Source: Flectonema sp. DT1601
Lineage: Eukaryota
Reading direction: 5' to 3'
DNA length: 64,000 nucleotides
NCBI GenBank assembly: GCA_964019425.1
Contig: OZ025792.1
Span: forward strand, 806,001 to 870,000
A program made the position numbers and the translations under genes. Positions 5,457-11,754 of this stretch are shown one piece after another. Under the pieces are notes generated by a model. The model was not told the origin of the DNA, did no database searches, and saw only the letters and a list, made by a program, of their open reading frames with translations. Position 1 is the first letter of the stretch, and every line of letters begins with the position of its first letter.

Positions 5457-5596
5457 CATATGAGGCGGTGCAGAAACCCCCCCCCATCTTTTCGTATCGT
5501 ATTAAAGGTCCCCCCCAATTTTTACCAGGCTATTCTGTGGGCACCTAATACCCAATCCGAGCTCACCACCCCACGAAAATAGTATCCAAAAAACTC
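5457..5596 (+). repeat. Extra truncated copy of the left terminal repeat of the TIR element
   Basis: catatgaggcggtgcagaaacccc...tttaccaggctattctgtgggcacctaatacccaat...ccccacgaaaatagtatccaaaaaactc is nearly identical to the copy starting at 5710, with a 24-nt insert inside the C-run. Confidence 0.85.
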
Positions 5597-5709
5597 CAAA
5601 AAACATTATTCCATCAAAGGATTAACGAAAGAAAAGAATTCAAATGCGACTCGAAAAAAAAAAAGAAAATGATAATAAAACGTTTCGAAGTAAATTCAAC
5701 GAAGCAGTT

Positions 5710-7440
5710 ATATGAGGCGGTGCAGAAACCCCCCACCAATTTTTACCAGGCTATTCTGTGGGCACCTAATACCCAATCTGAGCTCACCACCCCACGAAAA
5801 TACTATCCAAAAAACTCAAATCCGGTACTGGGGCATCCTCTAACTGCTCACCAGTTTCAAAATTCTATATTTTTTGACTGTTTCTGGTACTTTTGCCTTG
5901 TGTCTCTGTTGGTTGCCCTCAAAATGCTCAAAAACCAGCTTAGCAGCTACATTGCAGAAATTTGTTTACACCCTGGGTTCCTATGAAGACTGGGATGATA
6001 GGAACTGGAGAAGTGATGAGACAGGGGAATCTGAGAACTGCAGAGTACGATATCGGGTGGTGATTCTGAGTCACCCTCGCTGGCAGTGATGGGTTGAGCA
6101 TGATGTGGGCATGCTGTTCACAATAAGTGCACCCTCAGGGTTACTGGGGTTTTTCTAGAATCTATAGCCGCTTGAGGACGCTGCTACAAGCTCTATGTTC
6201 CAGTGGCTGGGGATGGCAGAAGTGAATAAGACCGAGGAAAGGAATTGTGGAAGAATAGGGACAAGAAAGTGGAGTCAGTGGTTGCCTGTCAGTTGTAACG
6301 CCTGACATGAAAAATCAGGTTCAATAAGAACTGGTAACCACTAGTGGTACCATAATATAAAACTCCTCCAAGTATCAAAAAAAAGGAGAGAGGCAGTTAC
6401 TATTACTGTATCAACTAGTCGATAATAACTCCCCTCTAAAAGACACTATCTCATACACACAGTACTGTTCTCTACCTGGAGTTGAGTTTCAGCAGTTTCG
6501 GCGCTGTATGGATGTGTGCAACTACCGTCTCGCAGGCAGCAATCTCTGAAAGAAGCTTGCCTTCCCGGCATCTTCAGTATTCGCCACATGTATCTGTGAT
6601 GTTGACAGACGTAATGGGTGGATCTCTGGGGCCTTCAACATCCTTCTGGCGCTCATAAAGTCCGAAGCTGGGAAGCGAACAACAATGAGAGGAATTATTG
6701 AAATAGATTCTCACATTGGAGATAAGAGACATGTCAGGTGTATTGAGAAGATACATCTAATCCATCCTGGTGACTATATCATGACTCTGGGTTATAAAGA
6801 AAAGGACTTCTAATGACAGAAGGGCCAAATTCCCCTTTCTATCAACAGGGGAAATAGTCTGCTTGGGTGTGTACTACATGAGCAGTTTGGAACTGAGGTT
6901 CAGTGTGGCCATAACAACTTCCTACTCCCACACATCAACCAGAATGCGATAGTAACGTATCCGGTTATGAATAAGTTCTTCTTGATGTCTGAGAATGACA
7001 AGATGATTCACTATCGGGCTGATGCTGGTAGGCAGCTTGAGAACACAACCGTCATCAGCCTGTTCTGTAAAATAGGTTGATCAGCTTGGGTTAACTTTTT
7101 CCCTAGTCGGCATGGCAAGTCCGAATGTGGTTGACACTTTGGCAATATCACATCTGTGCTGACACTCGCATCTAAATCGCAGGAAATCTGGGCCTTCAAG
7201 AAAAACAAAATTTCAAACATAATTTCTACCAGTGCCACACAGCTTGCAAGGCAAATGTTACTAGAAACAGTCAAAAAAGTGAAATTTTTAAACTGGTGGG
7301 CAGTAAAAGGGTTCCCCAGTACCGGATTTGAGTCTTTTGGATACTATTTTCGTGGGGTGGTGGGCTCGGATTGGGTGTTAGGTGCCCACGGGATAGCCTG
7401 GTAAAAATTGGGGGGGGGGGTTTCTGCACATCCTCATATG
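5710..7440. mobile_element. Putative non-autonomous DNA transposon bounded by about 190-bp terminal inverted repeats (5710-5900 and 7247-7440)
   Basis: Reverse complement of 7247-7440 aligns with 5710-5900 (catatgagg..gtgcagaaacccc..aatttttaccaggctat..gtgggcaccta..cccaat..ccccacgaaaata..tccggtactgggg..ttttttgactgtttct..tttgccttg). No recognisable transposase inside. Confidence 0.6.
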
Positions 7441-7618: not shown

Positions 7619-7733
7619 AAGTAATTTGCTTCCCATGTCTGTACAGCACCTGAATAAAGAATATAAAGTAATACGCGCAACTGGCAGAACAGATACTAAG
7701 GACATTCATGCGACCCTACCCTAGTCTTAGATA
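7619..7733 (+). repeat. Left arm of 115-bp inverted repeat (partner 10095-10209)
   Basis: Ungapped alignment to the reverse complement of 10095-10209 with 8 mismatches (counted by hand). Confidence 0.9.
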
Positions 7734-8770
7734 GGTTCACCGCGTGTTTTGAATTGAAGGGTGGGAGTGGGTGGCTGTGAACTGCAGAAGAAGTTCGATA
7801 ATAACGATAAAACTAATAACAGTACCACTCACGCCGAATATATAATATGCACGAGGTAAGGGAAGTGGAATAAAATAAGCACAAAGTAATTTCGGTAGTT
7901 TATGTTTTCTTTATCATCGGCGCTGCTTTAGGGCATGGTAGCAAATTACCTAAACGCAATGACAAACCCCAGGGCAAATGCAAGTGAGGTTGTGTCCCCT
8001 TCTAAAAAGGCACAGGCTGTCGTTAATTACAGGCACCCAACGATCAGAACGAAACAATGTTCGCATCCTCCCAACTGCTGCTAGTTCGACGAAACACATC
8101 AGAAAAAGCACATCAGAAAAAAGCTGCATCCCCATCATCACCTCGGTATCAAAGCTGCCATCAATAGCCAAGCTTCCATCGGTCACAGGCACTCGACGAA
8201 GCATAAGCGAAGCAGAAAGGGACCCTGTTTACATCCTCTCAGCCACAAAGACACTGTTACTCTTAGGTGCTCAACGGAATCAAAACACATTAAGCCGGGA
8301 TCATATCCCAATCACAAGTTCAAGGTTGATATCAATAAGCAAGTCAGAACGGAACCCCATTCACATCCTCCCAGCTACAAAGATGCTGTTGCCTTTAGGT
8401 GCTTGAAAGGGTCGAGGCACACTGAGGCGAAGCCATATCTCAATTGTACAGTCGATAGTAGATGCTCGACAAAGCCTGAATGCAGTAAAACAACAAAGCC
8501 TTGTCCTGAAACCCAAAGGCAAGCTATTAATTATAGAAACTCGGCGGCGCTTAAACAGGTTGATTCTGAGACAGGACCCCACAAGTTCAGAGCCTCAGGA
8601 AGACATGGGTACACGAACGAAGCTAAGCCCAGGGCCCAAGGCATCAGGCAAGAACTTGGCAACTCAGGCCAAATTCAAAGGAACCCAAAGGCCAGTTCGT
8701 TCAAATACTCCACCAAAAACCTGTTCAACACTGCAGAATAATAGGAAGTCCCGATCGCACAACAGACAGA

Positions 8771-9482
8771 GTGCTAACGGAAGGCTCACAAGAGAATATT
8801 GTTGGAAATATCCTGCTGAACATGATGGAAGGTGGCAAATTTTTGGGAATGGACAATGGACCGCTCCTAAGTCTGGCTGAAGCACTGGGAGCATCAGGTG
8901 CAGCAATTCCTCTGGAGCAGGCCTTGCCTATAAAGCATGTCGGCCTGATAAACTGGGCAAAAGTGCAGAACAAGCGGGCCTGCCTGGCAATGTTGGTTTG
9001 TTGGAAGGCAGCATCAAGGTGGGGCGAGACTGCTGCTTTATCAAGGGATCAGTTCATAGTACTAAGGCCGTACGAAATAATAATCGATTGGTTTCGCACA
9101 CCCAAGGGAAGGAAAGCAAATCCATACTCGCCCAGCAGGTGGGCAGTCATCAGTGGAAGGCATGCCGATCAGAGACTCTGGTAAGGCAAATGGGAGACTT
9201 CGAACAACCCCACCTGGGATACTTCAAGGCTGGTGAAGGAATTCCAGAAGGACAACACCATGAAGAAATACACCGCCCATTCGATAAAGCGAGGTGCCAT
9301 CAGCTGTCTGTTAGGGGTGCTCGCAACAAGACGGCGACAGTCAGGAATCAGCGAAATCCTGATAAGCAGATTAGCAAAGCATGCAGGGACTTCACCGATA
9401 TCGAGCACAACCCAGGTATGGGGGAAATCCTATTGCAATGGCCAGGGCACTGAGAACAGCGGATGTCACTCGTTCCCTTTGA
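8771..9482 (+). pseudogene. Frameshifted tyrosine recombinase of the retrotransposon
   Basis: Catalytic motifs across frames: WKAASRWGE (Arg), TPKG (Lys), YTAHSIKRGA (His..Arg box), RLAKH, and after a frameshift TRYGGNPIAMARAL (Tyr), stop at 9480-9482. Confidence 0.8.
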
Positions 9483-9529
9483 GGGGTGATATTGGACGGT
9501 CAGATGAGCGAGAAGTGATTCGAAAAATG

Positions 9530-10094
9530 TCAACTCAATTCACGCATCGTTCCAAAAGTACACGTTTGCCCATCACACCTGATGAACACCCTGCACCGCT
9601 TCATGTTTCAAAGGCGGGGCCTATGGATGTACCTTTTTTATTAAAGAGGATGCTACCTAAGGTTAAGCGCTTTCACAGATTCCGCAATATCAATTGAGAG
9701 GGGCTTTCAGTCGAAGTTTAGCAGTAAGCATGCTTCGGGGTTGGTGCAATGTGGGGTTGCAGTTTCAAGCCTGTCCTTATCTCGGAGCTGTGCACCCTGA
9801 AGTTGCATCTTGCAGGGATTTTAAAACTGGGTTCTATCAGATAAGTATTCCAGTAGAGTCTAGACCCTTCTTCGCTTTTTATGGCTCTTCTGGTAAGTCA
9901 TATGCTCTTACTCGTTTACCGATGGGGCATGTATGTGCACCTGAGCTTATGAACACCATTGCGGCAGTTGTTGCAGGCGACCCGCTTTTTGTTTTAGAAC
10001 AACATGCAGAGAGAGATGTCAGCATTCATTGGCGGATCGATAATATTCGTCTCTTTGGGCCAAGACAGGCTGTTCAGGCTGCCACTTCTCGGCA
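9530..10094 (+). pseudogene. Truncated reverse transcriptase (DIRS/TATE-type)
   Basis: Motifs DFKTGFYQISIP, RPFFAF, LTRLPMGHVCAPELM and WRIDNIRL (YxDD-equivalent); ends abruptly at the right inverted repeat with no RNase H. Confidence 0.8.
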
Positions 10095-10209
10095 TATCTA
10101 AGATTAGGATAGGGTCACATGAATGTCCTTAGTATCTGTTCTGCCAGTTGTGCGTATTAATTTATATTCTTTATTCAGGTGCTGTGCAGACATGGAAAGC
10201 GAATTACTT
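10095..10209 (-). repeat. Right arm of 115-bp inverted repeat (partner 7619-7733)
   Basis: About 93% identical to the reverse complement of 7619-7733. Confidence 0.9.
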
Positions 10210-10472
10210 GACCACTTCTCATAGCAGAAGGGGCATTTGTAAAGGGCCTGAAAAAATTGTGCATAGTGTGAAAGGTATGGTATCTTTCTCATAGCTTGTA
10301 GAATTATCAGCAGGGATAATAACAACAAAGACATGCTTGGACAGAGGCAGGGGATCAAGGAAATGGCTTGCACCTGTTTGCTCCCAGAGCAGACCTGCCT
10401 TGCCATGTGTTCATACCTTCGCGGCTAGGTAGGTTTCGAAAGAAGTATGATGATCCAGCCGGCGAACCATGA

Positions 10473-11125
10473 TTAAACTTGAGGGAAACCATGATTAAAC
10501 TTTTCGGAAGTAATATTTAGACGTCTTCGAATTGCAGCTGCAACATTGCCATCGTCAATATATAACTTGATAAAGCTGTGACAAGCTACTGCGAGGTTCT
10601 TAAACTTGTATCCTCGGTTGAGTAGTCTGTATGTTACGAACTCGAACTCTTGTAGAAGATCTGTCTGATTATTACAGATTCTGAGTGCTCGTAGGAGCAT
10701 GGTGGTGAATATATCGATTCTTGAGCAGCCGAGTGCTGGTGAGTGAATCTTGTTGGTATTATGTGCCATCTACGCGCTTTGTCGTTAACGCTAAGACGTA
10801 TCCATCTGTTGTTTGATTTTGTGGTTTCGATTCGAATTCTAATTCCGATGTATGAAACATCATCAATACCATTAGAGGTCTCGGTGTAGTTCAGTTGGAA
10901 TATAATTCTGCTGGTGGGTTGCAGTTCCATGTAAGGAAATCGTCTATGTACCGGCAAGAGTAGTCGTGTTTGCGTGCTAAATCTAACCCTCCTTTTGCTA
11001 CAAGGTCATCCATAAATTTAGATTCGATTCTGTAACAGTAGAGATTAGCTATATCGCTACTTGCGTTGCTGCCCATGGGAATGCCAACTACATGTCTCCA
11101 TAGTTTTCCTCCGAGATAGTGAAAA
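10473..11125 (-). mobile_element. 5'-truncated, frameshifted Penelope-like element (PLE) reverse transcriptase, C-terminal part
   Basis: FHYLGGKLWRHVVGIPMGSNASSDIANLY and CRYIDDFL, then (other frames) VSYIGIRI..LSVNDK and thumb-like FTTMLLRALRICNNQ..RLLNRGY. ORF stops without a GIY-YIG domain; 5' junction abuts a (TTTA)n microsatellite. Confidence 0.85.
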
Positions 11126-11178
11126 CAAATAATAAATAAATAAATTCTTCTGCTGTTCCATAATACACTGCAGAATAC

Positions 11179-11246
11179 GTAGTTTCAGGCCTTAATCTTA
11201 TACTACTTGTCCCTTTTTAGGCTTTCATCAGTAAGTTCTAAGGGAC
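11179..11246 (-). ncRNA. Putative hammerhead ribozyme with non-circularly permuted (pseudoknotted) strand order
   Basis: Minus strand: GUCCCUU AGAA CUUA CUGAUGA AAGCCU AAA AAGGGAC AA GUAG UA UAAG AUUA AGGCCU GAAA CUAC. Full core (CUGAUGA, GAAA, UH); stem I CUUA/UAAG, stem II AAGCCU/AGGCCU (one mismatch), stem III GUAGU/ACUAC, extra 7-bp helix GUCCCUU/AAGGGAC. Confidence 0.7.
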
Positions 11247-11754
11247 TTCATTCTATGTTGAAGTTGCTATCGTTCAAAGATAAAAATCCATCGGAGCTCG
11301 CCAGGATAGGGCTAGCAATGTTTATTTGCTTTTGCTCAATTTGAATTTTTGACGTCTGGTCGTTTCACTATTACAGTCGAGTTATTAGATGAGTCGTCAT
11401 CCAATTTGCGTTTTACTTTATCTTCGCATACCATCAAAGGTCCTATATTCGCAGGTGTCATTGTAACCGGTTAGATAACGACAGGTGGAACGGTTAACCA
11501 CCCATGAGTCCCCAATACTACGACTTGGCTAATCAAACACCTCCAAATACTTAAGTTATCCGTTGCAATAACTTTGCCATCCTGATTAAGCACCTGTGTA
11601 ATTAGAGTGGGTGAGAACGAGAATATTTTTTTAGGATAATAAACCAATGAGAATCTTCTCAGAAAAAAAGATTAGAATTACGAAAAAGTAATTGGGTAAA
11701 TGAAAATCAAGACATTAACGAACATAAAATCCTATGAAACGAAACTGTAGCAAT

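What the first reader, a model, noticed from the sequence alone, without database searches (positions are those of the whole stretch)
11179..11246. Hammerhead ribozyme with a non-circularly permuted strand order beside a Penelope-like RT
Seen: on the minus strand all invariant hammerhead nucleotides are present and all three stems can form, but the cleavage strand (GUAG-UA-UAAG, 11206-11197) lies inside what would be loop II. The order is [stemI-CUGAUGA-stemII] > [stemIII-UH-stemI'] > [stemII'-GAAA-stemIII'], which is none of the circular permutations (types I/II/III). A perfect extra 7-bp helix (GUCCCUU 11246-11240 / AAGGGAC 11215-11209) occupies the long linker; the stem I to stem II linker is only 4 nt, consistent with those stems lying side by side in the hammerhead fold. 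Predicted cut after GUA (between 11201 and 11200). It lies about 55 nt upstream of, and on the same strand as, the PLE RT fragment. Known: many PLEs carry hammerheads, rearranged hammerheads have been reported only rarely, and standard type I-III models would miss this one. Inference: this euglenozoan PLE family uses a rearranged ribozyme to process its RNA. One A-C mismatch in stem II may mean this copy is decaying.
Basis: partly seen in the sequence, partly recalled or inferred. Interest (0 to 1): 0.88.

Follow-up and report, generated by a model that had tools for sequence, protein, structure and literature searches.

The report
Knotted CSG hammerhead ending Penelope retroelements
The tail of a jumping gene in a marine-protist-like genome carries all the parts of a hammerhead RNA in a rare knotted order, known so far from two soil DNA sequences with no known host; it is predicted to cut itself, and the same layout can be read in published roundworm jumping genes that were reported to lack a normal hammerhead.

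Summary
Confirmed. Minus strand 11246-11179 holds the full hammerhead core, stems I-III and a 7-bp extra helix in the order C-S-G. This is type CSG of Eckert et al. 2023 (two soil-metagenome sequences, cleaving in vitro, host unknown), so the order is known, not new. Chance is low: 2 of 10,123 shuffled windows matched as well. One correction: the ribozyme is not at the 5' side of the nearby RT's element. It lies 89 nt after the stop codon of another Penelope-like family (41 of 42 residues identical; N-terminal endonuclease, Chlamys type, diplonemid-like host); the RT fragment belongs to a sister family. A low-depth contig from another run has G-C at the stem II mismatch. The same layout with changed stems appears in one metagenome repeat unit and, by eye, in 6 of 8 nematode Naiad consensus sequences of Craig et al. 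2021. I found this link in no paper. Cleavage is untested. This scan has already noted rearranged hammerheads in Naiads and in a moss element, mostly with other wiring.

The parts
11336..11464 (-). Last 42 codons and TGA stop of a 5'-truncated family-2 PLE ORF
   Evidence: tblastn 97.6% over 42 aa to P0002, 93-95% to other family-2 proteins, 40-44% to family 1; stop codon read
11247..11335 (-). 3' UTR between stop codon and ribozyme (89 nt)
   Evidence: covered by X1 record 6
11240..11246 (-). [quoted passage not shown]
   Evidence: pair probabilities 1.0 for 5 of 7 pairs, 0.87 and 0.46 for the others
11219..11235 (-). Block C: stem I 5' strand, CUGAUGA, stem II 5' strand; A11223 mismatched in this copy
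   Evidence: X1 letter at 11223 restores G-C
11209..11215 (-). P0 3' arm
11197..11206 (-). Block S: stem III 5' strand, GUA triplet, predicted cut between 11201 and 11200, stem I 3' strand
   Evidence: cut site by analogy with CSG-1/2
11193..11196 (-). AUUA linker between stem I 3' and stem II 3' strands
   Evidence: AUUAA stands at the same place in CSG-1/2
11179..11192 (-). Block G: stem II 3' strand, GAAA, stem III 3' strand
11122..11178 (-). Element end: about 32 nt of likely tail, then an ATTT-rich run
   Evidence: X1 record 4 follows the window to 11150, record 5 leaves at 11172; tail reading inferred
10482..11115 (-). 5'-truncated, frameshifted RT fragment of sister PLE family 1 (adjacent; not the ribozyme's own element)
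   Evidence: 86-92% to P0001/P0014 in three frames versus 62-81% to family 2

Best explanation
The stretch has every part of a type-CSG hammerhead and lies in the 3' UTR of a truncated Chlamys-type Penelope-like retroelement; it is predicted to cut itself after GUA and likely trims the element's RNA. Shown: the motif, its place 89 nt after the family-2 stop codon, and the family's domain order (GIY-YIG endonuclease, CxC, DKG, RT). Predicted fold: two stable hairpins (P0 and stem III) whose loops pair with each other to make stems I and II, a double kissing knot that rebuilds the ordinary core. [quoted passage not shown] The downstream ribozyme was uncut or re-joined when this copy was made, since the copy runs about 55 nt past the cut site. 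This genomic copy is a dead fragment with one stem II mismatch; I put its own activity near even odds and that of the family's intact form at about 0.85.
For: Motif and chance tests. Same layout as CSG-1/2, which cleave at the predicted site at 0.004 and 0.026 per min: P0, 2-nt link to stem III, GUWG/CWAC stem III, AUUAA linker. P0 and stem III dominate the nested fold. X1 record 6 differs at two listed places; one restores G-C in stem II, the other restores the isoleucine found in the family-2 proteins, so it looks nearer the family's intact form. Metagenome locus L156 has the same layout with 8 pairs changed on both sides relative to the window (2 in stem I, 4 in II, 2 in III), scores above all 1,722 chimeric controls, and lies in a 980-bp tandem unit. 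By eye, Naiad_Parc, Naiad-1/-2/-3_Nbra, Naiad_Hcon and Naiad_Hpol carry the same order with P0 and perfect stems of different sequence in their 3' part.
Against: No cleavage or expression data. Only one other copy of this family was seen, at depth 2.8, where one letter may be an error; 2 of its 4 differences were not listed and may lie in the 3' half of the ribozyme. Stem I is only 4 bp (duplex energy +0.3 kcal/mol) and stem II closes with A-U where CSG-1/2 and all six Naiads have G-C. Whole-fold z-score is weak (-1.45; pseudoknots not modelled). Window, L156 and Naiads need not share ancestry, so their pair changes are not strict covariation. L156 shows no PLE protein (best E 0.054). In Poseidon, hammerhead cutting was not needed for insertion in vitro and no reads ended at the cut site.
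Confidence: 0.8

Rival explanations
1. The motif is a real CSG hammerhead but a passenger: it cuts, yet the element does not need it.
For: Poseidon catalytic mutants insert normally in vitro. Craig et al. suggest hammerheads may simply parasitise PLEs. This copy keeps the whole ribozyme and a tail.
Against: The same layout is kept in the 3' part of six nematode Naiads and here, in two branches of the clade.
Confidence: 0.1
2. The RNA acts as a minimal type-I hammerhead (monomer or dimer), cutting after the second GUA at 11176, with UUCU pairing to AGAA/UAGAA as stem I; the self-complementary AGGCCU arms could join two molecules.
For: A CGS reading exists with a 5-bp stem I. Minimal, dimer-acting type-I hammerheads are usual in PLEs. 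X1 record 5 leaves the window right after UUCU.
Against: It needs a 4-nt insertion next to CUGAUGA and has one stem III pair plus A-U; Eckert et al. saw no insertions above 1-2 nt there. It leaves CUUA/UAAG and GUAG/CUAC unexplained. Stem II is not palindromic in the Naiads or L156.
Confidence: 0.05
3. A chance arrangement in AT-rich UTR sequence, or a fold that no longer cleaves in any member of the family.
For: Across some 250,000 windows, loose matches at 2 in 10,000 would occur. Weak stem I.
Against: 0 of 10,123 shuffles matched with Watson-Crick stems I and III; position at a PLE 3' end; shared linker features with CSG-1/2; restoring letter in X1.
Confidence: 0.05

Closest known systems
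Type-CSG hammerheads CSG-1 and CSG-2 (Eckert et al. 2023, PMC10085705; seen: main text parts 1-6 of 8, and supplement passages on CSG)
   Same: [quoted passage not shown]
   Different: Here stem I is 4 bp (6 there), stem II closes A-U (G-C there), triplet GUA (GUC there), stem II-to-III linker 12 nt. The two CSG RNAmotif descriptors shown in their supplement require the G-C pair, and the one shown in full a linker of at most 10 nt, so they would miss this copy. Their two sequences come from soil metagenome DNA with no host or gene context; this one ends a PLE.
Chlamys PLEs, especially Chlamys-1_cBra (Craig et al. 2021, PMC8557442; seen: passages, section 9, supplement part 1 and search passages)
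   Same: N-terminal GIY-YIG without the cysteine pair, CxC motif, DK motif, RT, C-terminal extension, 5' truncation, AT-rich insertion site.
   Different: Described from green algae, spike mosses and slime moulds, with no canonical hammerhead except type-I forms in two subclades. No CSG form was seen in their Chlamys consensus file in my word searches, which were not exhaustive.
Nematode Naiads flagged HHR_core or HHR_half_core (same paper, Files S1 and S5)
   Same: By eye, same CSG order with P0 in the 3' part; CUUA/UAAG stem I in the three Nippostrongylus families; core-to-GAAA distance here 38 nt, inside their 35-50 nt half-core range.
   Different: Naiad endonuclease type; longer P0 (8-16 bp) and mostly longer stem III; G-C closing pair. 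The authors did not read these as ribozymes.
Type-I minimal and canonical PLE hammerheads (Cervera and de la Pena 2014, PMC4209133, passages; Frangieh et al. 2024, PMC11167929, passages and part 2 of section 3)
   Same: Hammerhead in the pseudo-LTR of a PLE, upstream of a short tail.
   Different: Order C-G-S, no knot in the core; many need dimers or protein help; only stem I joins the products.

Membership tests
Type-CSG hammerhead | Block order C, S, G with uninterrupted blocks | tested here: met
Type-CSG hammerhead | Conserved core CUGAnGA, GAAA, UH | tested here: met
Type-CSG hammerhead | Stems I, II and III can form | tested here: met
   4, 5 of 6, and 4 bp plus the core A-U; mismatch paired in X1
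Type-CSG hammerhead | [quoted passage not shown] | tested here: met
   7-bp P0
Type-CSG hammerhead | Covariation among homologues | tested here: inconclusive
   One restoring letter in-family; 8 double changes versus L156; Naiads by eye only; common ancestry not shown
Type-CSG hammerhead | Site-specific self-cleavage | not testable with these tools
   needs an in vitro assay
Hammerhead types I, II, III | Circularly permuted order without insertions next to the core | tested here: not met
   No Rfam hit; CGS and SCG readings need 3-4 nt insertions
Chlamys-type PLE | GIY-YIG endonuclease N-terminal to the RT | tested here: met
   Motif at residues 237-256 of P0038, RT motifs at 840-958; Pfam GIY-YIG weak, E 0.007 and 0.15
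Chlamys-type PLE | No cysteine pair inside the GIY-YIG motif (CCHH absent) | tested here: met
   in a 31-row RT tree both families fall apart from the 3 CxxC-type rows
Chlamys-type PLE | CxC motif and DK motif upstream of the RT | tested here: met
   CNC/CPC read in P0038/P0014; VDKG
Chlamys-type PLE | Phylogenetic placement with named Chlamys families; insertion-in-fingers domain | not tested
   No named Chlamys sequence was in my tree; named neighbours are Diplonema papillatum and Flectonema neradi proteins
Chlamys-type PLE | Partial tandems forming pseudo-LTRs | tested here: inconclusive
   No genome held; two X1 contigs branch just after the ribozyme
Chlamys-1_cBra subtype | C-terminal Josephin-like domain | tested here: inconclusive
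   Resemblance by eye and recall only; no Josephin hit in Pfam, PDB or Atlas; no structure model obtained

The most novel reading that the evidence does not exclude
Type CSG is a standing ribozyme of N-terminal-endonuclease Penelope-like elements, from diplonemids to nematodes, and the two orphan soil sequences are pieces of such elements. Among the six block orders it alone leaves all three stems joining the two cut products, so the ends of a doubly cut unit-length RNA would rebuild the whole ribozyme and re-join into a circle. That would explain why genomic copies keep an intact ribozyme plus tail, and why L156 is a tandem unit.
Probability: 0.3. Interest if true: 0.88.

Novelty: new variant of a known kind. 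Interest (0 to 1): 0.72.

Why it matters
Eckert et al. called the evidence for type CSG weaker because it rested on two similar sequences without a host. This gives it a genomic home, a likely job and at least seven further divergent examples. It also bears on the report that Naiad and most Chlamys elements lack canonical hammerheads: several have a knotted one that the descriptors could not see. Compact monomer-type constructs from active families make the open question of what PLE hammerheads do directly testable.

Tried and rejected
No whole genome is held, so copies could not be counted. No second copy in the window. No RNA holder listed. A second laying of X1 at 100% likeness returned nothing. 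Under the strict test 1 of 304 loci passed. The metagenome pattern fixed part of stem I and the linker, so it misses other CSG forms; it did not return CSG-1/2, whose gene context stays unknown (the shortest contig returned was 1,158 nt). The search for related loci with the PLE alignment found no relative in viral or prokaryote contigs. Josephin identity of the C-terminal domain was not confirmed; no structure model was obtained. Rejected: ribozyme as 5' part of the RT's own element; type I/III readings. One tree run failed at display and was redone with FastTree.

Full report
1. Observation. A base-pair-aware search finds one CSG-order match in the window, at minus-strand 11231. Stem I has 4 bp, stem II 5 of 6, stem III 4 plus the core A-U, and the extra helix P0 7 bp. 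Of 10,123 shuffled windows, 14 gave core plus three stems, none of them with Watson-Crick-only stems I and III, and 2 had a P0 of 7 bp or more. Within 300 nt, CSG is the only order that needs no insertion beside the core; the best rival is a type-I reading with a 4-nt insertion. Rfam has no hammerhead hit.

2. What the order is. Eckert et al. 2023 (PMC10085705; main text parts 1-6 of 8; supplement passages) split the hammerhead into blocks C, G and S and name six orders. This one is CSG. They found two similar CSG sequences, only in soil metagenome DNA, which cleave at the expected site (0.004 and 0.026 per min), and called the evidence weaker than for SGC. [quoted passage not shown] The CSG descriptors shown in their supplement would miss this copy.

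3. Whose ribozyme. The RT fragment (11115-10482) is frameshifted and 86-92% identical to a family of 24 clustered ENA proteins (family 1). Upstream of the ribozyme, 11464-11339 matches the last 42 residues of a second family of 59 proteins at 93-98% (family 2), and only 40-44% to family 1. The stop codon ends at 11336, 89 nt before P0. So the locus reads: truncated family-2 3' end, UTR, ribozyme, about 32 nt of tail, ATTT run, then a truncated family-1 copy. A template jump or a second insertion into the AT-rich end would both give this; I cannot separate them. Full-length proteins (P0038, P0014) have an N-terminal GIY-YIG motif without the cysteine pair, then CxC, DKG and RT, the Chlamys pattern of Craig et al. 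2021. In a FastTree RT tree of 31 rows (2 family representatives, 1 of the Diplonema hits and 28 of the 150 hits, picked for length or score) both families sit with Diplonema papillatum and Flectonema neradi proteins at support 1.0, apart from the three CxxC-type rows. A window gene has D. papillatum as its best named hit (47%), so the host is diplonemid-like.

4. Other copies. No genome is held. One public run holds the stretch. Its record 6 covers 11179-11415 with 4 differences, 2 listed: one makes the stem II mismatch a G-C pair, the other gives the isoleucine seen in the family-2 proteins. Depth is 2.8 and two differences are unseen, so this is supportive, not proof. Records 4 and 5 branch after the ribozyme: one follows the window to 11150, the other leaves at 11172, as a tail versus an internal junction would.

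5. The same layout elsewhere. The metagenome scan gave 25 loci; 1 passed the stem test (L156). It has stems of 8, 7 and 3 bp plus P0, beats all 1,722 chimeric controls on total pairs (5 of 1,722 passed a looser test), and differs from the window on both sides of 8 pairs. It lies in a 980-bp tandem unit without a PLE ORF. None of 21 prokaryote-genome hits passed. Craig et al. (PMC8557442; passages, section 9, supplement) report no canonical hammerhead in Naiads but flag half-cores whose two halves are 35-50 nt apart; here the distance is 38 nt. Reading their consensus file by eye, not scored by program, I see the full CSG layout with P0 in 6 of 8 nematode Naiads: Parc, Nbra-1, -2, -3, Hcon and Hpol (4 of the 6 were flagged by the authors). 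A seventh lies in Asuum or the spider family Ptep. None was seen in the last 450 nt or so of Ppac. Stems differ in sequence and stay paired, for example stem II GUUCC/GGAAC, GCCUC/GAGGC, GGUCC/GGACC. My word searches covered nine 8-letter core words and miss words broken by line ends, so absence from the Chlamys file is weak. Notes from this scan report rearranged hammerheads in Naiads, mostly SGC-like or four-way forms, and one in a moss element; they were a lead for reading that file and are not counted as support.

6. How it likely works. P0 and stem III are the dominant nested helices. Their loops are complementary, so stems I and II would form as two loop-loop helices and rebuild the usual core. 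P0 and the short linker would hold stems I and II together in place of the usual loop contact (as Eckert et al. propose). Cutting would leave a 2',3'-cyclic phosphate and a 5'-hydroxyl (established hammerhead chemistry, recalled). In a tandem or read-through transcript the upstream ribozyme would set the RNA's 5' end. The copy here runs past the cut, so its template was uncut or re-joined at the 3' ribozyme; this fits the finding that uncut RNA is the main substrate for Poseidon in vitro (PMC11167929). CSG is the only order in which all three stems join the two products, which predicts slow release and re-ligation. That step is inference only.

7. Novelty. The ribozyme is a new member of type CSG; the pairing of type CSG with PLE 3' ends was in none of my searches: 'non-circular permutation' + hammerhead (8 papers), Penelope + hammerhead + retrotransposon + pseudoknot (12), Naiad + hammerhead + Penelope from 2021 (4), 'type-CSG' + hammerhead (1), Diplonema + Penelope + retrotransposon (1), 'permuted hammerhead' + retrotransposon from 2023 (0), and (12). 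From these lists I read passages of a 2026 retrozyme preprint (its supplements were not seen and could bear on this) and of PMC13725137; the rest were seen as listings only. The library lacks most subscription journals.

8. Verdict. A real type-CSG hammerhead at the 3' end of a Chlamys-type PLE family (0.8), in a decayed copy; new variant of a known kind; interest 0.72.

Noticed in passing
L156 (whole 1,332-nt metagenome contig; ribozyme core at 798, minus strand): A 980-bp tandem unit (overlapping 352-357 nt, 89.7% identical) with one clean CSG hammerhead and no PLE ORF: a candidate retrozyme or non-autonomous PLE with a CSG ribozyme.
   Followed up: partly
window 7619-10209: A decayed DIRS-like element beside the family-1 fragment: 115-nt inverted repeats at 7619-7733 and 10095-10209 (93%), a weak RT hit at 9667-10101, and tyrosine-recombinase-like motifs by eye (recalled, no Pfam hit).
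   Followed up: partly
window 10466-10500: A 14-nt or longer direct repeat at the point where family-1 homology breaks off.
   Followed up: no
window 5510-5900 and 7247-7439: Another dispersed repeat, in direct and inverted copies of 90-194 nt at 87-96% identity.
   Followed up: no
proteins P0038, P0014 versus P0005, P0008: The two families here end in a domain with a Cys-containing motif that recalls Josephin proteases (unconfirmed), while Diplonema papillatum relatives end in a UCH-like domain (Pfam E 0.0004-0.02; PF00443 precomputed): possibly swapped deubiquitinase domains.
   Followed up: partly
window 11239-11236 and 11175-11172: The AGAA linker is complementary to UUCU just after the ribozyme, where X1 record 5 diverges; a fifth helix is possible.
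   Followed up: partly
Craig et al. File S5: Coral, octopus and ctenophore Naiads show GAAA before CUGAUGA, a different rearranged order from the nematode CSG form.
   Followed up: no
protein clusters of P0096, P0098, P0106: Full-length relatives lie on JGI contigs of 7-9 kb; their 3' UTRs could be read for ribozymes.
   Followed up: no
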